Part shown: positions 23,688 to 63,852 of the stretch, in pieces
How positions within the stretch are numbered: position 1 is the stretch's first letter
How the letters are laid out: every line of letters begins with the position of its first letter
Source: a virus
Direction: 5' to 3' (one strand)
Length of the DNA stretch: 64,000 nucleotides
Virus record (IMG/VR): IMGVR_UViG_3300008120_010803
Span: 16,162 to 80,161 of that record
Made by a program: the position numbers and the translations under genes
The notes under the pieces: model-generated
What the model was told of the DNA's origin: nothing
What the model saw: only the letters and a program-made list of their open reading frames with translations
Database searches by the model: none

Positions 23688-23728
23688 GAAGGCATCATAC
23701 CAACAATCCGAATAAATTCAAATACAAA

Positions 23729-24007
23729 TCACTTCGACTTATTAGTGTCTTGTGGAAATTTTTCTTTGATATAGTCAGATAAATCTTTCCAAACTTCGTA
23801 CACATCCATTTTAGTTTTGGGTGCTCCCCCAGCCGGTGCTGCACCTCCACCCATATCTGGTGGTGGTCCTCCCGGTGGCAGTCCTCCTCCCATGTCAGGA
23901 GGCCCTCCAGCCGGTGGCCCTCCGGGGGGTGGTGCTGCCCCTAAATCTGGAGGCGGTGCATCTTCTTCTTTGAAAAGATACTGTATATATTCCCTGAAAG
24001 TTTTCAT
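23729..24007 (-). CDS. Pro/Gly-rich small protein with capsid-targeting-like leader
   Basis: MKTFREYIQYLFKEE then PPPGGPP repeats; ATAAATA 6 nt upstream. Confidence 0.7.
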   Translation of the reverse strand: MKTFREYIQYLFKEEDAPPPDLGAAPPPGGPPAGGPPDMGGGLPPGGPPPDMGGGAAPAGGAPKTKMDVYEVWKDLSDYIKEKFPQDTNKSK

Positions 24008-24062
24008 CGATAGTATTTATAGCAAATCAAATCAAATTTGATCCATAAACAATAAATATAAT

Positions 24063-24488: not shown

Positions 24489-24492
24489 ATTA

Positions 24493-24672
24493 TTATTTGT
24501 GGCTTTTCTTTTTTTTATGTTTCTTTACCGTCATTTTGTCTAAAAAGTTTTGCGAATTTTTAATTGATCCGTCTACCTTCTTGCCAAGGTTTGCTTGATT
24601 TTCAACCATTCTTTCCGCTTTTTTTTCTAAGCTATTGAAAATTCGGACAACATTATCTAATTCTTCATACAT
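24493..24672 (-). CDS. small hypothetical protein (59 aa)
   Basis: Manual ORF MYEELDNVVRIFNSLEKKAE... with AAAGGG upstream. Confidence 0.45.
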   Translation of the reverse strand: MYEELDNVVRIFNSLEKKAERMVENQANLGKKVDGSIKNSQNFLDKMTVKKHKKKKSHK

Positions 24673-24747
24673 TTGAGTGCCCTTTCATTCGGTAGCTTAT
24701 TTACACTCTTTAAATTAAATATAAAAGTACATTTGGTTTTAATGTAA

Positions 24748-28351: not shown

Positions 28352-29176
28352 ATGCAAGAAAATATGACATTTATGGAATGGCTTGGTGTCCCCCCGGAAC
28401 AAATGTTCGGTTTTGTGGGAAATTTCGGACCAAAAGCAACTGAAAAAACAAAAGTTTATTCCGAAGAGCCTTTGGAACCGCTACAAGTGTCTCTCATTTT
28501 AGACGAATTAGGATGGCTCGGATCAATTAATAATAAAAAGCCTCAAAGATTGTTCGAAAATGTTATGAGCTACGGAGATGTTGCAGACAGAATGCAAGTT
28601 GTTGTATCTCCATATGGCTCTCTTAAAATTATATTAAGAAAAGTCGCAACCACTTTGGAGGGAAGCTACATACCACTTTGTTATTCAATATATCCACTTA
28701 TTAATGATTATAATCATAATGGAGAAAATGATGATCATATTGAAAATATGATAGCAAATAAAATTGCAGATAAGCTTAATGAAATGGATAAAAGAATGAT
28801 GTTAGGTGGAGAACGAAATTTTGAAGGCACCAGAGAATTGGTTTTAGAAATGGCTCAACATGTGAGAGCAAATCATCCTAGGTGTATGCACTTTGAGGGT
28901 GTAATTCAAAATGGAGAAAATGATTACACAATATACTTGCAATATAATGGACAAGGTGTTGAGGCCCCATCTGCCAAAAGAGTTGAGCAGTTTGATATAC
29001 ATCTGAATTACGATAAGGATACTGGATTGATTCGTTGCTGGGCTAATGAAATTACTAGTCCTACAAGACAACATCTTTGGCAAGTCCAACCTAGTGAATG
29101 GGATGAATACTTTTCTCCTAAACAAAAAAATAGTGAGATTGTTGAGTGTATAATGAACGCTCTATATACCTATTAA
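28352..29176 (+). CDS. hypothetical protein, possible internal head protein
   Basis: MTFMEWL leader; ATACATA 4 nt upstream of ATG. Confidence 0.65.
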   Translation: MQENMTFMEWLGVPPEQMFGFVGNFGPKATEKTKVYSEEPLEPLQVSLILDELGWLGSINNKKPQRLFENVMSYGDVADRMQVVVSPYGSLKIILRKVATTLEGSYIPLCYSIYPLINDYNHNGENDDHIENMIANKIADKLNEMDKRMMLGGERNFEGTRELVLEMAQHVRANHPRCMHFEGVIQNGENDYTIYLQYNGQGVEAPSAKRVEQFDIHLNYDKDTGLIRCWANEITSPTRQHLWQVQPSEWDEYFSPKQKNSEIVECIMNALYTY

Positions 29177-29856
29177 AATTCAAAACCAAAATACTTATTG
29201 TACATATCTGATAATTCTTTGATGTCAAAGTCTTTTAGGTTTTCTATGTTCGATAGGTCTATTATATCAGTTCTTATTTGATCAGGTAATTTCTGAATCC
29301 ATTTCGAGCAAAAAACATATAATGGACTTATTTTTTTAAGTATGACAAACCTCAAAATATTTGGAGATTCTTTAATATAATTTTCTAAAGAAACATCTTC
29401 TTTTAATAAATCTTTTATTGTACGCAGAGTAAGTTCAAATTCACTAACCACATTGGCTTCGAGATGAGCATAAGCTACTTTTGTAGTTTGCCTTTTTTCC
29501 TTAATTAATTTTTTCCACACAGCCCATCGGGCCTTTGCTTTATCTCCATGCAACAATGAGGGATCAACAAGTATACGATGGCCTTCTTTTTGGAGTTTGT
29601 GTGCTATTTCTAGTTGTGCTCTCATATACAGAACAAATTGAAAACCACTCAATGTTTCTTTGTTTGCTTTGACAAACTTCAACATATGTTTGAAAACAAT
29701 ACTTTTTCGAATATCTCCTTTTTTTGCTACCCTTGGGTGGCAATAATTTGGTAAAATCTTTCTTGTTAATTCAATCCATTGACAACAAAGTTGGTAGGCA
29801 AGAATCTCATCTTGATTGAGTCCTAGTTCCAGAGCCATATGTGGGTCGTATTTCAT
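29173..29856 (-). CDS. hypothetical protein (weakly gp59 helicase-loader-like)
   Basis: 227 aa, basic and helical; PNILRFVILKKISPLY loosely recalls the gp59 C-domain; divergent from the polA-dnaB operon. ORF is solid, function speculative. Confidence 0.5.
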   Translation of the reverse strand: MKYDPHMALELGLNQDEILAYQLCCQWIELTRKILPNYCHPRVAKKGDIRKSIVFKHMLKFVKANKETLSGFQFVLYMRAQLEIAHKLQKEGHRILVDPSLLHGDKAKARWAVWKKLIKEKRQTTKVAYAHLEANVVSEFELTLRTIKDLLKEDVSLENYIKESPNILRFVILKKISPLYVFCSKWIQKLPDQIRTDIIDLSNIENLKDFDIKELSDMYNKYFGFEF

Positions 29857-29872
29857 ACTTCCAAGTTTACAC

Positions 29873-29902
29873 TTTACAAAATGTTTGGCAATAGACTATA
29901 AT
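29873..29902 (+). promoter_or_regulatory. sigma70-type promoter driving the structured RNA / polA operon
   Basis: TTTACA (29873-78), 18-nt spacer, TATAAT (29897-902). Confidence 0.6.
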
Positions 29903-29909
29903 GCATTTG

Positions 29910-30310
29910 TGATTCAAGTAGGGTGAAGTGTCAACCCAAACGATGATCATTTTAAAAATTGAAAGAAGTGAATTTGTTAAAAATTCTATTCAATTGATTT
30001 TTAAAATCAAAACCTGTCGGAGCGGTACTCCCTGCTAAGCCCATTAGGTAATACGGGAACCTAATGACCGACTTGAAGACAAGGTGAGCCTGTGCTTCGC
30101 CAAAAACGGCAGGCAGTAATTAGTCTAACTAATTACAGGGGTGCAGGTTAAGCGTCTTAAAATCGACACATTAAACCAAGACTAAGTTTATATACTTAGC
30201 AATAAGGTTTAAGTAGCTGTGAGAAAACTTATTTAAGTTTTTTTTCTCACACCTCCTTAAGCCTGCCCCCCGGTTTGGTTTTATTTTTAAATGATTTATA
30301 ATAAGCCAAA
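29910..30310 (+). ncRNA. candidate large structured non-coding RNA (or RNA-primed origin) upstream of polA-like gene
   Basis: ORF-free 520-bp gap with at least eight stems, including nested multibranch junctions: GTCGG/CCGAC, CATTAGGT/ACCTAATG, GTAATTAG/CTAATTAC, GGGGTGCAGGTTAAG/CTTAAGCCTGCCCCC, TTAAACC/GGTTTAA, CTAAGT/ACTTAG, TGTGAGAAAA/TTTTCTCACA. Confidence 0.65.
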
Positions 30311-30376
30311 TTTTAGTTTGTTTTATTGTGCCGTTTTTGTATGCTTATTGGATTCCCTTCTTTATAGGAATATTCC

Positions 30377-31705
30377 ATGATTGACTTGGAAGCCTTATGC
30401 GCTGAGTTTTTAAGTGTTGGTTCCAAAGAGCCTATTTTATTTTTAGACTGGTCCCCTTCTGATCCTGATTCAACTACCTTGGTTAATTTGGCCCTTAAAA
30501 TTCGTTTACAGAGCATTTCTGGCTATAGTCGTACTCTGGACCTGAATTCGGAAAATTCCTTTTCTATTCTGCGTTTAATCGAGTCTGTTTTTTCTTCTAA
30601 GAAAATTTTTATACTTGGATATAATTTTAAATCTTTATTTTCTTATTATCGTCGTGTCTGTCGATCTGAACTGGTTTTGACTAATGTAATTGATCTTTTT
30701 TGGTACGAGTCTTATAGGTCAATTGAATCTAGTAAGGGTAATATGAATTTGGGCTTATCTAATTTTAAATCTCTGATAAAAGATGCAGAAACATACAAGC
30801 TATATTCAAGTTACTATCGTGATTTAATAAGCAAAGTTGTTCCATTCATGGAATCTTTTCCTATATTGAATGATGATACTGGAACTATAGTCTATAGTAA
30901 TTATAACATTGAGGGGCAAGAGAATGGGAGGCTCTCATGTTCTTGCAATAAGAAGAATGTTTTCAATCCACATTCTTTAGGAGAAGAGAAGAAAAATCTT
31001 TTATTTTATAGTTCGAATTACAAGTATTTTATGCAATTCGACTATCGGAACATGGAAGTTGCGGTTTTGGCTGAATTGTCTGAAGACTCCGAGCTTCTTG
31101 ATATTGTAAAGTCTCCTGATAATAATGTATATTCAAAGATATTTGAAAAGGTTACTGGGGTAAAGAATCACGAAGATGCAAAAAATTTGGGTAAAAAAAT
31201 ATTTCTCCCGCTTATATATGGGCAGACCAAGAATGGCCTATCTAAGTCATTAGACATATCAATAGATCAGGCAGAAATATATTTTAATAACGCCAAAAAA
31301 TACTTCAAGAAAAGTTTTGATTATGTTGAAGCTGCACAAAATGAGGCTTCTTCTAAGGGTTATCTTGAAGACTGTTTCAGGAGAAAAAGATATTTCATAG
31401 ATGGGGAATCATATAAGGCAAGGAATTTTATAATACAATCTCCTTCTGCTTTAATTTGTTTGGAATCGTTGTTAAAATTGTATAGAGAAGCTCAAGATAT
31501 TTTCGCTGTTGCGTTTCATGTGCATGACGGATATTTCTTGGCAATTAAGAAAGACAGCATACAAGAAGCTTTTTATAGTGCAAAAAAGGCTCTTGAAGGT
31601 AAGTTGAACCTGATGCCAAATTTACAGTTAAAAACAACTGCAAAGTTGGGAAAAACGCTGGATAAAATGGTTTTACTTGAGAAAAGAAAAGAAGGTGTAA
31701 TTTGA
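30377..31705 (+). CDS. family A DNA polymerase-like protein, compact and divergent
   Basis: NGRLSCS, motif A FDYRNME, motif B GKKIFLPLIYG, ARNFIIQS, motif C HVHDG; only 442 aa. Confidence 0.85.
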   Translation: MIDLEALCAEFLSVGSKEPILFLDWSPSDPDSTTLVNLALKIRLQSISGYSRTLDLNSENSFSILRLIESVFSSKKIFILGYNFKSLFSYYRRVCRSELVLTNVIDLFWYESYRSIESSKGNMNLGLSNFKSLIKDAETYKLYSSYYRDLISKVVPFMESFPILNDDTGTIVYSNYNIEGQENGRLSCSCNKKNVFNPHSLGEEKKNLLFYSSNYKYFMQFDYRNMEVAVLAELSEDSELLDIVKSPDNNVYSKIFEKVTGVKNHEDAKNLGKKIFLPLIYGQTKNGLSKSLDISIDQAEIYFNNAKKYFKKSFDYVEAAQNEASSKGYLEDCFRRKRYFIDGESYKARNFIIQSPSALICLESLLKLYREAQDIFAVAFHVHDGYFLAIKKDSIQEAFYSAKKALEGKLNLMPNLQLKTTAKLGKTLDKMVLLEKRKEGVI

Positions 31706-32259
31706 GTTCAATATATTTAAATTTTCCGATCACATCTGAAGAGTATAAAAGTCTCGAAAAGAAATTTGGCCAGTTGTGTTATTATGCTGCATGGCAGTTA
31801 ACCCGCAAGAACTCCAATAATAATCATCAATGTGATCTGGATGATTTTCAACAGGAACTAATGCTTGCGGTACTTCGTGCTGGTTCATATTACAAGAGAC
31901 AAGTTTATATTGATAGTAGTTTTTCTGCTTTATTTGATAGCAAGATGGATAAAATTGCCAGAATGGTTTTGGAAGAATTGTTTGATTTATGGAAGAATCG
32001 TACTCGTCACGGCGCTAATCGGCAAAAATTTGGAGATCATCAAGAGAAAATTTTGGACAATTTGTGCGAATGCTATTTACGAGACTTCAGAATTCCTGAT
32101 AAAAAAAGAGAATTGATTTTTGATGCCAAGTTTTTTACCTATTGCAAACAAATAGTATGGAATGCACAGAGAAACCTTGGTAAAAAGATTACTAGGGAAA
32201 AGCCGATCCGAAGTGGTCAAGTAAGTTTGTCCGATCATGATTATCTTGTTTATGGGTGA
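31702..32259 (+). CDS. sigma-70 region-2-like protein with internal insertion
   Basis: DDFQQELMLAVLRA...AKFFTYCKQIVWN...VSLS; TTG start coupled to the polA-like stop. Confidence 0.55.
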   Translation: MSSIYLNFPITSEEYKSLEKKFGQLCYYAAWQLTRKNSNNNHQCDLDDFQQELMLAVLRAGSYYKRQVYIDSSFSALFDSKMDKIARMVLEELFDLWKNRTRHGANRQKFGDHQEKILDNLCECYLRDFRIPDKKRELIFDAKFFTYCKQIVWNAQRNLGKKITREKPIRSGQVSLSDHDYLVYG

Positions 32260-33770
32260 GTATGAGTGATTTAAGTGAATCTGAAAAACAAACTCTTACT
32301 TCACTTATAGCAAGTGCTCCTAAACCATCTAAATTCAAATGGGACGATAATTTTCAGCGAAGAATATTAGGTCTGATTCTCACAGATAGTTTTTTTCTGG
32401 TTCAAAGTAAATCATTGATTCAGGCAGAATATTTTACAAATGAAGCGCATGTTCAAATTTGCAGTACAATTTATGATTACCATGAAAAATACAAGTCCAT
32501 GCCTGAGAAGTTTGTTGTCAAACAACTTTTGTTGGAAAAAATAAAACAAAAACAAGAATCTGTAATACTTTACTATCAAAACGAATTAGAAAATATATAT
32601 GAAGCTTTTGTTCCCTCGACAGCATCTAGGGAAATACTGCTTGACAAGATATTGGTATTTGCGAAAACCCAAGCTCTGCGAATAGCCATGGATGTTTCGC
32701 AAAAGGATTTGAAGAAAGACCCAGAAAGCGAAGAAGTATGGACTAAAATATACGAGCGTTTTAGAGACGCTATGAATATAAATAAGAATTTTGAAATAGG
32801 ATTTGAATATTTCAAGGATATAGAATTATTCTTTGCTGATTTAGGTAAAGATACATGTGTCGAAGATACATTTACAAGTGGTTTTTCGAAGATAGACACC
32901 GCTCTTGCTGGCGGGGGCTGTAAGCGTGGAGAGATATTTGCGTGGATTGGTATGCCCGGAAAGGGCAAATCGTTGAGTCTTGTTAAGGCTGCTGTAGACA
33001 ATGTGAAGCGTGGCAAGAAGGTTATGTATCTGTCTGTAGAAATGGATTGTTATAGTATCGCCAAACGATTCACAAGTCAGTTCACATTCTTGCCCCATGT
33101 CAATCTTCTCAAGCATCGTGAAGAGATTGTCAATCTTTTGTCGATGGAAACAAGGAATTATACAGACAAGAATCGATTTCTAATCAAGCAGTTCCCATCT
33201 GGTCAGATAGATGTTAACGATATTGTTGCCTACTTGAATCAATTAGAGCTTTATGGATTCAGGCCAGACCTTCTCATAGTGGATTACCCCGGTGAAATGA
33301 AAGATGCTCCGGGTATTCCACAATGGGAAAGCAAATACAGAATCATGCGTGATTTGCGTGGCCTTGCAATTCAAAATAAAATGTGTGTTTTCACCGCAAT
33401 GCAGCCAAATAAAAATGCTGCAAATTTAGCAGAATCAGAGTTTATTGATGAAGGTACGATTGGTGGAAGCTTTGATCAATTCAAGCCTTTGGATGGTTTG
33501 TGGTCAATTAATCAGACGAATGATGAAACTTCTGCTGGATTCGGAAGAGTGTTTGTGGTAAAACACAGGAATGGAAGAAGTAGGTTTAGCTTTACTGTCA
33601 AATACAACAAAGAGAACTTGGATATATCAGAGTGCTCCGAAGGTTTGTATCGCATTGGAATGCACAATTACCAACAGGCTAAGTCTGGTGAAGTTAATTT
33701 AGACGGTGCGGTTGAAAACAAAAATTACGAACCCAAGAGTGAAGAAGAGGAGATAGATTATGCCGAGTGA
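32256..33770 (+). CDS. dnaB: replicative helicase (DnaB/gp41 family)
   Basis: TSGFSKID, GMPGKGKS, YLSVEM, IVDY, TAMQPN, VVKHRNG. Confidence 0.93.
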   Translation: MSMSDLSESEKQTLTSLIASAPKPSKFKWDDNFQRRILGLILTDSFFLVQSKSLIQAEYFTNEAHVQICSTIYDYHEKYKSMPEKFVVKQLLLEKIKQKQESVILYYQNELENIYEAFVPSTASREILLDKILVFAKTQALRIAMDVSQKDLKKDPESEEVWTKIYERFRDAMNINKNFEIGFEYFKDIELFFADLGKDTCVEDTFTSGFSKIDTALAGGGCKRGEIFAWIGMPGKGKSLSLVKAAVDNVKRGKKVMYLSVEMDCYSIAKRFTSQFTFLPHVNLLKHREEIVNLLSMETRNYTDKNRFLIKQFPSGQIDVNDIVAYLNQLELYGFRPDLLIVDYPGEMKDAPGIPQWESKYRIMRDLRGLAIQNKMCVFTAMQPNKNAANLAESEFIDEGTIGGSFDQFKPLDGLWSINQTNDETSAGFGRVFVVKHRNGRSRFSFTVKYNKENLDISECSEGLYRIGMHNYQQAKSGEVNLDGAVENKNYEPKSEEEEIDYAE

Positions 33771-34200
33771 AAATTTCAGAATTGGTGAGCAAACTTTTGA
33801 AATTAATGCTGAAAACCTCAAGTTTTCAGATGCGACCCTGAATACTTTTTTTGAAAAGATTTCAGGAATTACTGATTATGTTGGTGCTGCTTTGTCTGAA
33901 GCCACAAGACAGCACTCTTTGCTGGAAGCAAAATATAAACAAGATTACATAGGCAAGTTCAAGTTTTACAAGGAAGAGGGCAAGAGCGATAAAACCTCTG
34001 AGTTATATGCAGAGGGAGACCCTGATGTAGCTTTGGTAAAAGAAGCAGTCATAAATGCAAAATATATCAAAGATCGTCTGTATGCTCATTTAAATGCTCT
34101 TAACAATGCCAGAGATGATGCTCATAATCGTGGTCATATGTTGAGAAAAGAAATGGATAAATTGGATATGGACATAAAGATGGGTGTCGCTGGACTTTAA
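33760..34200 (+). CDS. UvsY-like recombination mediator
   Basis: 146-aa helical protein with SDK...YAEGDPDV pattern, in the replication cluster. Confidence 0.55.
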   Translation: MPSENFRIGEQTFEINAENLKFSDATLNTFFEKISGITDYVGAALSEATRQHSLLEAKYKQDYIGKFKFYKEEGKSDKTSELYAEGDPDVALVKEAVINAKYIKDRLYAHLNALNNARDDAHNRGHMLRKEMDKLDMDIKMGVAGL

Positions 34201-62455: not shown

Positions 62456-63852
62456 AGATAGTAGGTTTTGAACACCTACATCTTCACACAGACATACTGC
62501 CCCCGGCATAATTTAATGCCGGGGGCGCAAAAAACTATAGTCTTTTAGATGGATTTGGCCAAGTTGAAGAATACGCAGAGCATTGGCACCACCATGGTCA
62601 GTTTCTCTGCATAAGTGATCATGGCATGCTCGGTGCTGTTCCCAGACAAGTAAAAGCTTGTGAACAAATTTGTGAACAACACGGAAAAAATAAGCTTAGT
62701 GCAATTTTTGCCTGTGAGTTATATGTCAACCGCATGCACTCCGAGCCTACTCCTGATGAAGAGAGTAGAAAGAAATTCATGGACCAACTTGGTCCTGAAG
62801 AGCTTGAAGAATTCAAAGTAAAAGGCAGTCACTTACTTGCGATTGCCACATCTAAACAAGGTTATTCCAATCTTGTTCAATTATCATCTTATGGTTTTCT
62901 GAAGGGTTTCTATGCGAAACCCCGTGTAAACTATGAGATGCTTCAAAAACATAAAGAAGGATTGATTTTTACATCTTGCTGTTATGCAAGTGAAATAGGC
63001 AGAACATTCGATAAAAAAGGGGAGGAAGCAGCTGAAGAAGTTTTAGTAAGATATATCAACATGTTCAAAGGTCAGTTTTACTTAGAAATTATGATGTTGG
63101 ATTTCAAAAAGCAAAAACCATATGATGTTTTCATTTTGAAAATGAAAGATAAGTATAATCTTCCAATTATTCTTACTAACGACTGCCATTATTGCAAACA
63201 GGAAGATAGTCATTATCAAAGATTGATGCTGATGATTCAGACAAAAAGAACTTTGCCAGAAATACAAAAGATGATTGAAGAAAATGAAAATCAAGATTTT
63301 TTTGAACTCCAAGACAGTAATTTGTGGATGAAAACAGAAGAAGAGCTTAATGAGATGTGGCAAAAAAAATATAGTGATGTCATACCACTCGAAATATTTG
63401 AAGAAGCCAAGGCCACTACAGTTGCTATTTGTCAAAAAGCCAAGGGCGTTGAACTAGACAGAAGCATAAAATTTCCACTACAAGAGGAAGAAAAGAAAGC
63501 TCTAGCGCAGGCTGTCGCAGATGGATTGCGGTTTAGAAACATCAAGCCACAAGGGGAATACGGCAAACGAGTTGCGGAAGAATTTGATATAATCACACGA
63601 AAGGGGTTTGCTAGTTACTTTCTAGTCCAGAAGATGATGACCGATGAGGCCAGAAGAGTTTGTCCTGAGCTTTTGGGTTGGGGAGATGGAAGGGAGGCTG
63701 TTGGCCCCGGAAGAGGTTCTGGTGGTGGGTCTTTGATTCTTTATTTATTGGGTGTCACCGATGTTGATCCGATACGACATGGTTTGCTTTTCTCAAGATT
63801 TTTGAGCGAGGCTAGAGGTGGAAAACAAATTAAGTTAAAATTTTCAAATTAG
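62431..63852 (+). CDS. dnaE: DNA polymerase III alpha (DnaE) N-terminal part, interrupted by a 42-nt stop-containing insert
   Basis: FEHLHLHTD-[insert]-YSLLDG, SDHG, CELYV, HLLAIA, GFYAKPRV, TNDCHY, GFASYFL, GPGRGSGGGSL..YLLGVTDVDP, LLFSRFL; all one frame from ATG 62431. Confidence 0.93.
62494..62535 (+). other. 42-nt hairpin insertion with in-frame TAA (candidate translational bypass element)
   Basis: GCCCCCGGCAT-aattta-ATGCCGGGGGC 11-bp stem; TAA at 62509-62511. Confidence 0.85.

What the first reader, a model, noticed from the sequence alone, without database searches (positions are those of the whole stretch)
29857..33770. Large structured RNA + thumb-less PolA + sigma-like protein + DnaB: candidate RNA-dependent priming/initiation system
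Seen: the only large ORF-free gap in the window (29857-30376) has a sigma70-like promoter (29873-29902) followed by ~400 nt of dense nested complementarity. One domain is a three-way junction closed by GTCGG(30016)/CCGAC(30068), whose two loop regions carry complementary TCCC and GGGA (possible kissing pseudoknot). An 8-bp hairpin follows at 30116-30136. A second multibranch domain is closed by GGGGTGCAGGTTAAG(30138-52)/CTTAAGCCTGCCCCC(30256-70) and encloses three hairpins. Directly downstream is a translationally coupled run: an atypical family-A polymerase, a sigma-region-2-like ORF and DnaB. The phage also encodes DnaE, and no primase is visible in this replication cluster. Known: ColE1 RNA II/Pol I and T4 R-loop origins use a transcript as primer, and retrons pair an upstream ncRNA with a polymerase. 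Inference: the RNA is a dedicated partner (primer, template or scaffold) of the minimal PolA, or an RNA-primed origin that loads DnaB. I do not recognise this arrangement as a described system.
Basis: partly seen in the sequence, partly recalled or inferred. Interest (0 to 1): 0.88.

Follow-up and report, generated by a model that had tools for sequence, protein, structure and literature searches.

The report
New pseudoknotted RNA before phage polymerase
The gap holds a real, previously undescribed RNA of about 370 bases with three pseudoknots; it sits just upstream of a stripped-down DNA polymerase gene in many huge freshwater phages, and its job is not yet known.

Summary
The core observation holds. 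Window 29857-30376 encodes a + strand structured RNA of about 370 nt (about 29909-30276) behind a near-consensus promoter. No Rfam 15 family matches it, here or in 19 related loci.

Homologues lie directly upstream of the same ~440-aa family-A polymerase in many IMG/VR huge-phage contigs. Of 71 distinct polA loci, 65 have at least 345 ORF-free bases upstream. Covariation is strong:
- 16 of 22 pairs in the 5' domain.
- 11 of 20 pairs in a second clade, on an unfitted alignment.
- 13 of 34 long-range or pseudoknot pairs.

The three-way junction is right. The UCCC/GGGA kissing contact is not supported, because that loop pairs with the 3' tail. The long closing helix is really three helices (P3, P4, P6), and P3 and P4 cross.

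On the proteins:
- PolA has a vestigial exonuclease domain and a thumb reduced to a stub.
- The 185-aa ORF resembles sigma domain 2 only at modest Z, and it follows polA in 80 of 80 loci.
- DnaB and DnaE are confirmed.
- Complete relatives do carry a primase elsewhere in the genome.

Function is unproven. My best guess (0.35) is a partner RNA of the polymerase module. A cis-regulatory leader is nearly as likely.

The parts
29873..29902 (+). sigma70-like promoter of the RNA (TTTACA, 18-nt spacer, TATAAT)
   Evidence: 11 of 12 matches. A -10-like box is kept at the same distance before the first hairpin in relatives (alignment A3).
29909..30276 (+). The structured RNA as a whole, about 370 nt. 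The ends are inferred from the promoter and from the last conserved pairing.
   Evidence: G-U pairs are frequent, and they would be A-C mismatches on the other strand.
29921..29937 (+). Hairpin H1. The stem is 29921-24 / 29934-37. Loop bases AAGUGUC (29926-32) are the 5' strand of pseudoknot PK1.
   Evidence: H1 is 100% paired and 2 of 4 pairs are compensatory.
29938..30009 (+). Variable AT-rich hairpin region. Its length and sequence are not conserved.
   Evidence: this stretch is gapped or divergent in relatives.
30010..30072 (+). Junction AAACCUG followed by the three-way junction: P2 30016-20 / 30068-72; P2a 30021-25 / 30032-36; P2b 30042-49 / 30059-66, whose loop is UAAUACGGGAA.
   Evidence: 89-97% of cells paired, against 30-47% in slid controls.
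30054..30057 (+). PK2 5' strand: CGGG in the P2b loop
   Evidence: It pairs with 30269-72. Compensated variants are CGAG/CUCG, UGGG/CCCA and AGGG/CCCU.
30089..30095 (+). P3 5' strand: CCUGUGC, directly after the conserved AGGUGAG
   Evidence: It pairs with 30141-47. One search gives 4 of 5 inner pairs compensatory. One search shows the same helix in both clades.
30108..30114 (+). P4 5' strand: GGCAGGC. It lies inside the P3 loop, so P4 crosses P3.
   Evidence: It pairs with 30261-67. Variants are GGCGGG/CCCGCC, GGCUGGUU/AACCAGCC, GGCUGA/UCAGCC, GCCGAC/GUCGGC and AUGCUGAC/GUCAGCAU.
30116..30136 (+). P5 hairpin: 9-bp stem with a 3-nt loop
   Evidence: A hairpin is kept at this place in relatives but its sequence is not.
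30141..30152 (+). P3 3' strand GUGCAGG (30141-47), followed directly by the P6 5' strand UUAAG (30148-52)
30165..30172 (+). PK1 3' strand: GACAC(A)UU
   Evidence: It pairs with the H1 loop. One search gives 95% paired and 3 of 7 pairs compensatory. Variants are UUGUC/GACAA, UUAAC/GUUAA, GUACU/AGUAC, GUGCU/AGCAC, CGUACU/AGUACG and CGCACU/AGUGCG.
30219..30250 (+). P8 hairpin with an A-tract and a U-tract. A hairpin is kept at this place in all nine cluster-1 relatives, but its sequence varies. The U-run is invariant in cluster 1 and absent in cluster 2.
30256..30276 (+). 3' strands: P6 CUUAA (30256-60), P4 GCCUGCC (30261-67), PK2 CCCG (30269-72), then GUUU
30277..30376 (+). Non-conserved T-rich spacer that ends in the polA ribosome-binding site
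   Evidence: The spacer is 40-165 nt in relatives. Promoter-like boxes are not consistently enriched in it.
30377..31705 (+). Family-A DNA polymerase, 442 aa. It has a vestigial N-terminal exonuclease-like domain without carboxylates, a thumb reduced to two helices, and motif C reading HDG.
31702..32259 (+). 185-aa helical protein that resembles sigma domain 2 with an inserted three-helix unit. It follows polA in every locus examined.
32256..33770 (+). DnaB-like replicative helicase, 504 aa
   Evidence: PF03796; phrog_19, E 1e-52.
29173..29856 (-). Divergent 227-aa ORF of unknown function. In 53 of 71 distinct loci the nearest upstream ORF of 140 aa or more is on the minus strand, but it is not always this gene.

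Best explanation
Shown:
- The gap encodes a discrete, compactly folded RNA of about 370 nt that belongs to a family not in Rfam.
- It is read on the + strand from its own near-consensus promoter.
- Its fold comprises a 5' hairpin, a three-way junction, at least six further helices and three crossing interactions: the H1 loop with 30165-72, P3 against P4, and the P2b loop with the 3' tail.
- This fold is kept by compensatory changes across phages whose polymerases are only 32-60% identical.
- The RNA always lies immediately 5' of, and co-oriented with, a degenerate family-A polymerase. That polymerase is always followed by a 185-aa sigma2-like protein, and in the loci I examined by DnaB.

Inferred, my best guess: the RNA is a dedicated partner of that polymerase module. 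It would be made from the same promoter-proximal transcript and bound by PolA and/or the 185-aa protein. This is the pattern seen with other large RNAs encoded just upstream of nucleic-acid enzymes (retron ncRNA, omega/HEARO RNA, IS110 bridge RNA). It would supply or position what the crippled polymerase lacks, most plausibly a primer end or a targeting scaffold for starting leading-strand synthesis. DnaB and the phage DnaE would then take over.

Confidence in the descriptive part is about 0.95. The figure given below is for the mechanism.
For: - Existence and structure. Paired cells are 89-97%, against 23-50% for slid partners, and 0 of 500 shuffles reach the observed covariation score.
- Novelty: searches give no Rfam match here or in 19 relatives.
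- Linkage: the covariance models hit only upstream of polA, on the + strand, with one credible match per record (the only other hit, in G002, is 11 bits at E 0.9).
- Of 71 distinct polA loci, 65 have at least 345 ORF-free bases upstream. A strict loop/tail/P4 signature is found in 26 of 76 upstream regions, against 2.6 in shuffles.
- The RNA core is better conserved than PolA: about 69% mean column identity where the protein is 47-60% identical.
- Size and knottedness exceed those of known riboswitch aptamers (my own knowledge).
- The 3' border is sharp and is followed by a non-conserved 40-165 nt spacer with no expression-platform helix.
- PolA has lost its exonuclease carboxylates and most of its thumb, so a cofactor is plausible.
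- There is no consistent sigma70-like promoter between the RNA and polA, so the two are probably co-transcribed.
Against: - No transcript data exist for this phage, so neither the RNA's ends nor its abundance are known.
- Nothing tests RNA-protein binding.
- 3-4 of 71 polA loci, including a complete 527-kb genome, have no room for the RNA upstream. An obligatory subunit would have to be encoded elsewhere in those genomes, which I did not test.
- Replication modules are syntenic anyway, so adjacency is weaker evidence in phages.
- Two complete and one 69%-complete relative encode a Toprim primase, so replication does not need an RNA primer.
- The GC skew of a complete relative gives no origin signal at the locus.
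Confidence: 0.35

Rival explanations
1. Cis-regulatory leader. The RNA is the 5' untranslated part of the polA, sigma2-like and dnaB operon mRNA. It senses a metabolite (for example a nucleotide) or a replication protein and sets expression of the operon. It could work as a riboswitch, or as a glmS-like ribozyme that needs no expression platform.
For: - It is always directly upstream of polA and co-oriented with it.
- No terminator follows its 3' tail, and no consistent promoter lies in the spacer, so read-through into polA is likely.
- Alternative pairing is possible: GGTTTAAG 30206-13 with CTTAAGCC 30256-63 competes with P6 and P4.
- A few polA genes lack the RNA, as happens with regulatory leaders.
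Against: - The conserved core is about 250-300 nt with three crossing helices, larger and more knotted than known aptamers (my own knowledge).
- The spacer to the start codon is 40-165 nt and not conserved, and no conserved terminator or RBS-sequestering helix was found.
- The anti-SD-like CACCUCCUUA and the U-run are conserved in one clade only.
Confidence: 0.3
2. RNA-primed origin of the ColE1 RNA II or T4 oriF/oriG type. The transcript stays hybridised to the template downstream of its structured part, is extended by PolA, and the displaced strand loads DnaB.
For: - A strong promoter points into the replication operon.
- The locus encodes a Pol I-like enzyme without proofreading next to DnaB, with DnaE encoded separately.
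- Within the window the cumulative GC skew turns 4-6 kb away, at about 24-26 kb.
Against: - Deep conservation of three pseudoknots is far more than R-loop formation needs.
- The downstream DNA would give a U-rich RNA and therefore weak rU:dA hybrids.
- The skew extrema of a complete relative lie at about 55 and 517 kb, while its polA is at 287 kb.
- The skew in the window follows gene orientation.
- Relatives encode a primase.
Confidence: 0.12
3. A trans-acting RNA with a function unrelated to PolA. Examples would be an RNA that modulates RNA polymerase or the sigma2-like protein, an RNA-processing ribozyme, or an anti-defence decoy. On this reading it merely resides in the conserved early/replication module.
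For: - It has its own promoter.
- Its fold has sharp borders.
- Other large phage-associated RNAs such as GOLLD and ROOL have no link to neighbouring genes (my own knowledge).
- The 185-aa neighbour has a sigma domain 2-like fold.
Against: - The position relative to polA is kept across all clades sampled, while other neighbours vary. The upstream gene is on either strand and is not always the same gene.
- There is only one credible copy per record, at this locus.
Confidence: 0.18
4. Not an RNA. On this reading the conservation reflects DNA-level signals in a divergent control region, such as origin iterons, protein-binding sites or cruciforms.
For: - Both strands fold equally well in silico.
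- The region lies between divergent genes.
Against: - Compensatory changes keep long-range and crossing helices that duplex DNA would not form.
- G-U pairs are frequent on the + strand only, for example GU in 8 of 10 sequences at one pair and UG in 4-5 of 9 at others.
- A promoter lies at a fixed distance upstream.
Confidence: 0.03

Closest known systems
Partner RNAs encoded just 5' of a nucleic-acid enzyme: retron msr-msd with its RT, HEARO/omega RNA with IscB, IS110 bridge RNA
   Same: It is a large, pseudoknotted RNA directly upstream of, and co-oriented with, the gene of an enzyme that acts on DNA. It is probably made from the same transcript and is better conserved than the protein.
   Different: - The enzyme is a family-A DNA polymerase inside a phage replication module, not an RT, an RNA-guided nuclease or a recombinase.
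- No Rfam model of those RNAs matches.
- No flanking inverted repeats or guide-like variable segment were seen.
- Partnership is inferred here, not shown.
ColE1 RNA II with Pol I, and T4 oriF/oriG R-loop origins
   Same: A promoter-driven transcript next to a Pol I-type enzyme and a helicase. A proofreading-free PolA sits alongside a separate DnaE replicase.
   Different: - The RNA has three deeply conserved crossing helices.
- The downstream region is U-rich.
- No antisense regulator was identified.
- GC skew in a complete relative does not point to the locus.
Large cis-acting leaders: cobalamin riboswitch, T-box, glmS ribozyme
   Same: The position is in front of the regulated genes, the structure covaries and includes pseudoknots, and, as with glmS, the spacer to the start codon is variable.
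   Different: - The core is larger.
- No conserved expression platform was found.
- No match to any of these families appears at E up to 10.
- A replication operon controlled this way would be without precedent, as far as I know.
GOLLD and ROOL, large ornate RNAs of phages and prophages
   Same: It is a phage-borne RNA several hundred nucleotides long, with many helices and unknown function.
   Different: - There is no sequence or structure match.
- Those RNAs are not tied to one neighbouring gene. This one is.
T4 gp55, the late sigma factor with a region 2-like core only (my own knowledge). This comparison is for the 185-aa ORF.
   Same: It is a small helical protein of similar size that resembles sigma domain 2, lacks domain 4, and is encoded among replication genes.
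   Different: - No PHROG or Pfam match was found.
- The structural match is modest: Z 6-7 over about 78 residues, with a 65-residue insertion.
- It is invariably coupled to polA, so it might instead be a polymerase accessory subunit.

Membership tests
Any Rfam 15 family (RNase P, tmRNA, 6S, group I/II introns, riboswitches, T-box, glmS, GOLLD, ROOL, HEARO, OLE, retron msr) | A covariance-model match at or near the family's gathering score | tested here: not met
   - no match in the whole window at gathering score.
- on 29800-30450 at E up to 10, only sub-threshold miRNA-type hairpin hits at 30203-30266.
- 19 related loci gave only tRNAs elsewhere.
Structured functional RNA (generic) | Helices kept by compensatory changes beyond what controls give | tested here: met
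   - 16 of 22 pairs compensatory.
- 11 of 20 pairs, on an unfitted alignment.
- 13 of 34 long-range or pseudoknot pairs, on an unfitted alignment.
- Slid controls reach 23-50% paired, and 0 of 500 shuffles reach the observed score.
Riboswitch or cis-regulatory leader | A conserved expression platform next to the aptamer: a terminator/antiterminator or a helix that sequesters the RBS | tested here: inconclusive
   - No terminator follows the tail.
- The spacer is 40-165 nt and not conserved.
- The internal hairpin plus U-run (30219-50) and the anti-SD-like box occur in one clade only.
- One competing local helix exists.
Riboswitch or cis-regulatory leader | Ligand- or protein-dependent control of the downstream gene | not testable with these tools
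   This needs reporter or in-line probing experiments.
ColE1 RNA II-type primer or R-loop origin | The locus coincides with the replication origin | tested here: inconclusive
   - The window's skew turns at about 24-26 kb, which tracks gene orientation.
- In the complete relative G004 the extrema lie at about 55 and 517 kb, with polA at 287 kb.
- That relative also lacks the upstream gap.
ColE1 RNA II-type primer or R-loop origin | A persistent RNA-DNA hybrid, RNase H processing and extension by Pol I | not testable with these tools
   The only indirect clue is that the downstream segment is T-rich on the + strand.
Retron | A reverse transcriptase (RVT_1) encoded next to the ncRNA | tested here: not met
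   The adjacent polymerase is family A, PF00476. Its model superposes on Klenow, Bst and Pol nu.
Family-A DNA polymerase (for 30377-31705) | A palm and fingers domain carrying motifs A, B and C | tested here: met
   - PF00476 at E 8e-32.
- The family profile aligns residues 170-425 to Bst Pol I.
- D222, K273, Y281 and H383-D384 are invariant or nearly so.
- Foldseek TM-score 0.7-0.79 to Klenow.
Family-A DNA polymerase (for 30377-31705) | Active 3'-5' exonuclease (DxE and other carboxylates) and a full thumb | tested here: not met
   - Residues 1-115 form a small alpha/beta domain whose first strand reads LFLDWSP, with no conserved DxE.
- Only two helices (123-159) stand between that domain and the palm.
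- No residue-level superposition was available.
Sigma-70 family, domain 2 (for 31702-32259) | The sigma domain 2 fold | tested here: inconclusive
   - No Pfam or PHROG hit, and no Foldseek hit.
- In VIA-align, sigma domain 2 chains dominate the top rows, at Z 5.3-7.2 with about 78 residues aligned across model residues 5-165.
- That is below the level at which helical bundles are safe to call.
DnaB helicase (for 32256-33770) | A DnaB C-terminal ATPase domain and a full-length match to a phage DnaB family | tested here: met
   PF03796 at E 5e-9. phrog_19 at E 1e-52 over residues 21-473.

The most novel reading that the evidence does not exclude
The RNA is an obligate RNA subunit of a family-A polymerase ribonucleoprotein. 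The exonuclease-dead, thumb-reduced PolA (with the 185-aa protein) would bind this pseudoknotted RNA and use it as a built-in primer, template or origin-targeting guide to start phage DNA replication. As far as I know, no polymerase of this family has been reported to depend on an RNA subunit.
Probability: 0.15. Interest if true: 0.95.

Novelty: categorically new. Interest (0 to 1): 0.8.

Why it matters
Large RNAs with several conserved pseudoknots are rare. Those that have been solved turned out to be machines or guides: RNase P, tmRNA, omega RNA, bridge RNA.

This one is well supported by covariation and matches no curated family. It is fixed next to an unusual, stripped-down DNA polymerase in the replication module of a broad group of huge freshwater phages.

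- If it partners the polymerase, it would be a new way to start or steer DNA synthesis, and a possible tool.
- If it is a leader, it would be, as far as I know, the first structured RNA known to control a replication operon, and one of the largest.

Either way it is a defined, testable object. Its coordinates, fold and dozens of homologues are now in hand.

Tried and rejected
- RNA-seq: no RNA holder was listed for window 28500-33800. Three small lake metatranscriptomes laid on 29500-31000 gave no reads. This says nothing about expression.
Homologues known only from Logan or ENA contigs could not be fetched.
- Collection scans with the core motif: IMG/VR returned only contigs already found. 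JGI metagenomes added L093 and L094 plus two GC-rich false positives, L090 and L092. The genome collection added L206, and L205 was false.
- The rebuilt covariance model R2 found no members beyond those of R1. More distant members were recognised only by motif and covariation.
- Local hairpin GGUGAG/CUUCGCC, used as 'P3' in models R1 and R2: rejected in favour of the long-range P3, which holds in both clades.
- A helix AAAC (30010-13) with GUUU (30273-76): only 2 bp are kept in relatives, so I do not claim it.
- The C-run as a telomerase-like template: rejected. Relatives read GCAUCCCG or GCACUCGG at that place.
- Internal hairpin plus U-run as an attenuator, and CACCUCCUUA as an anti-SD element: each is conserved in one clade only.
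- A separate sigma70-like polA promoter in the spacer: it is clearly above shuffles in only 3 of 17 members.
- Predicted PolA/ORF185 complex: no verdict.
- The 185-aa ORF by Foldseek against the PDB: nothing.
- The 227-aa divergent ORF: no family by Pfam, PHROGs, the protein atlas or a PDB profile search.
- Phage GenBank collection, blastn of 29800-31800: no match.
- Five literature searches and one preprint check found no description of such an RNA.

Full report
**Setting.** The window is part of an 80-kb IMG/VR virus record that CheckV rates 15% complete, so the phage genome is about 500 kb. The sample is lake water.

Around the finding lie these genes:
- a RecD/Dda-like helicase and a UvsW-like helicase;
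- a divergent 227-aa ORF of unknown function;
- the gap itself;
- polA, a 185-aa ORF and dnaB, joined by 4-nt overlaps;
- then dCMP deaminase and an SSB.

A DnaE (PF07733) sits at the window's end. With ORFs of 60 aa or more, 29857-30312 is the only internal ORF-free stretch above 260 nt.

**Is the element real?**
- The gap has a TTTACA-18-TATAAT promoter at 29873-29902, matching 11 of 12 positions.
- It folds with z about -6 on either strand.
- Rfam 15 gives nothing at gathering score in the window.
- At E up to 10, Rfam gives only sub-threshold miRNA-type hairpin hits on one hairpin.
- ARAGORN finds no tRNA or tmRNA.

**Relatives.**
- The polymerase has 84 homologues of about 440 aa in the 5.8-billion-protein set.
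- A profile scan of IMG/VR returned 80 loci.
- nhmmer found the gap sequence upstream of polA in five of them.
- Motif scans added L093, L094 and L206.
- Covariance model R1, built on 30003-30126, hit 13 loci. All hits are on the + strand, 250-450 nt before polA.
- Each record has one credible copy.
- blastn clustering of the upstream 750 nt gave further groups. By eye and by a loop/tail/P4 signature, cluster 2 (L035, L037, L042, L049, L054, L058, L068, L075, L081) has the same architecture. So do L016, L020, L023, L027, L076, L144, L167 and L168.
- The strict signature occurs in 26 of 76 distinct upstream regions, against 2.6 in shuffles.
- Of 71 distinct polA loci, 65 have at least 345 ORF-free bases upstream, with a median near 620. 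Only 3-4 have fewer than 250.
- None of 19 related loci matches an Rfam family at the element.

**Structure, in window coordinates.**
- H1 is 29921-24 / 29934-37. Its loop AAGUGUC pairs with GACAC(A)UU at 30165-72 (PK1).
- A variable AT-rich hairpin follows, then the junction AAACCUG.
- P2 is 30016-20 / 30068-72. It encloses P2a (30021-25 / 30032-36) and P2b (30042-49 / 30059-66).
- CGGG in the P2b loop (30054-57) pairs with CCCG at 30269-72 (PK2).
- After the conserved AGGUGAG come P3 (30089-95 / 30141-47), an A-rich linker, and the P4 5' strand (30108-14). The P4 5' strand lies inside the P3 loop and pairs with 30261-67, so P4 crosses P3.
- P5 is the hairpin at 30116-36.
- P6 is 30148-52 / 30256-60.
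- P8 is a hairpin with an A-tract and a U-tract at 30219-50.

**Formal counts.**

| Alignment | Part of the fold | Cells paired | Pairs with compensatory change | Slid controls (paired) | Shuffles reaching the score |
|---|---|---|---|---|---|
| R1-fitted, 12 sequences | 5' domain | 89% | 16 of 22 | 30-47% | 0 of 500 |
| Unfitted MAFFT, cluster 2 | 5' domain | 96.7% | 11 of 20 | 33-47% | 0 of 500 |
| Unfitted MAFFT, nine cluster-1 sequences | H1, PK1, PK2, P3, P4, P6 | 91.5% | 13 of 34 | 23-50% | 0 of 500 |

One of the four helices counted in the first row is the local 'P3' hairpin that I later rejected. Its five pairs account for 4 of the 16 compensatory pairs in that row.

**Examples of covariation.**
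- PK2: CGGG/CCCG, CGAG/CUCG (L012, L035, L042, L058, L068, L081), UGGG/CCCA (L010, L206) and AGGG/CCCU (L076).
- PK1: GUGUC/GACAC, UUGUC/GACAA, UUAAC/GUUAA, GUACU/AGUAC, GUGCU/AGCAC, CGUACU/AGUACG and CGCACU/AGUGCG.
- P4: GGCAGGC, GGCGGG, GGCUGGUU, GGCUGA, GCCGAC and AUGCUGAC, each with its complement.

Frequent G-U pairs fix the strand as +.

- The junction and the hairpin at 30116-36 stand.
- The UCCC/GGGA kissing contact is not supported. Where GGG becomes GAG, the compensating change is in the 3' tail. Relatives without UCCC in P2a still keep the contact.
- Of the 15-bp closing helix only UUAAG/CUUAA is conserved. Its other halves belong to P3 and P4.

**Proteins.**
- PolA. PF00476 matches at E 8e-32. 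The family profile aligns residues 170-425 to the palm and fingers of Bst Pol I. The AlphaFold model (pLDDT 94) superposes on Klenow, Pol nu, apPOL and Bst at TM 0.7-0.79. Residues 1-115 form a small alpha/beta domain without the exonuclease DxE. Only two helices (123-159) stand where the thumb should be. Motif C reads HDG. 'Thumb-less and exonuclease-dead' is therefore essentially right, although I had no residue-level superposition.
- The 185-aa ORF. It has 771 homologues at 55-88% identity and no Pfam or PHROG family. Foldseek finds nothing. With VIA-align, sigma domain 2 chains dominate the top rows at Z 5.3-7.2 across residues 5-165, with an inserted three-helix unit. That is suggestive but below the safe level for helical bundles. 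It is preceded by polA in 80 of 80 loci found through it, so a role as a polymerase accessory subunit is an open alternative. The complex prediction gave no verdict.
- DnaB is confirmed.
- No primase family is detected in this 80-kb record. However, two complete relatives of about 530 kb and one 69%-complete relative each have a Toprim_2 ORF of 342-382 aa elsewhere.

**Function.** Nothing I could run addresses it directly. No RNA run holds the sequence, so function is inferred from context only.

For a partner RNA of the polymerase module:
- its size, its three crossing helices and a core conserved above protein level;
- a sharp 3' border followed by a non-conserved spacer;
- strict 5' adjacency to a crippled nucleic-acid enzyme, as with retron, omega and bridge RNAs (my own knowledge);
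- no consistent promoter between the RNA and polA.

For a cis-regulatory leader:
- the same position, and the lack of a terminator after the tail;
- a competing local helix, 30206-13 with 30256-63;
- occasional loss of the RNA.

Against a ColE1-like origin:
- the U-rich downstream RNA;
- the primase in relatives;
- no skew signal at polA in a complete relative, which moreover lacks the gap.

My estimates are: partner RNA 0.35, leader 0.30, unrelated trans-acting RNA 0.18, R-loop origin 0.12, DNA-level element 0.03.

**Novelty.** No Rfam 15 family matches. Five literature searches and one preprint check found no description. Earlier notes of this scan on this stretch are first-reader notes on this same genome only. 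I class the RNA as a new class. The mechanism remains open.

Noticed in passing
L206:4957-5082 (minus strand) and its polA downstream: A true member of the RNA family (model R2, 96 bits) lies upstream of polA on a 271-kb contig of 33% GC. The contig is filed in a MAG labelled 'uncultured Acidimicrobiaceae bacterium'. This is either a hint to the host or a phage contig binned by mistake.
   Followed up: partly
L012:4948-5021 and L014:5340-5492 (minus strand): tRNA genes on the opposite strand sit inside the polA/185-aa ORF/dnaB module of two relatives. The window has no tRNA at all.
   Followed up: no
window 30206-30213 with 30256-30263: GGTTTAAG can pair with CTTAAGCC. This is the minimum-free-energy fold, and it competes with the conserved P6 and P4 helices. 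The competitor is kept in the window, L093, L007 and L008. It may be a structural switch.
   Followed up: partly
window 30250-30259: CACCTCCTTA is identical to the 3' end of 16S rRNA (the anti-Shine-Dalgarno sequence). CCUCCUU is kept in the window's own clade but not in the second clade.
   Followed up: partly
L056 (= G004:C1:283854-290897), upstream of polA: A complete 527-kb relative has only about 58 nt between polA and the upstream minus-strand gene. The RNA is therefore missing there or encoded elsewhere. L072, L129 and L143 are similar.
   Followed up: partly
window 31702-32259 and loci L098-L177: The 185-aa sigma2-like ORF is much better conserved than PolA (55-88% against 32-60% identity). 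It is preceded by polA in 80 of 80 loci, which suggests the two proteins work together.
   Followed up: partly
window 62626-63852: A DnaE-type (Pol III alpha) gene runs off the end of the window. The phage therefore carries two polymerase families.
   Followed up: partly
window 23688-24062 and 24489-24747: The cumulative GC skew and the gene orientation of the window both turn at about 24-26 kb, next to two smaller non-coding gaps. I did not examine these gaps.
   Followed up: no
G004:C1 (whole 527-kb record): GC skew is positive only from about 517 kb, through the record's ends, to about 55 kb. It is negative over the other roughly 460 kb. This strongly asymmetric pattern probably follows transcription direction.
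   Followed up: no
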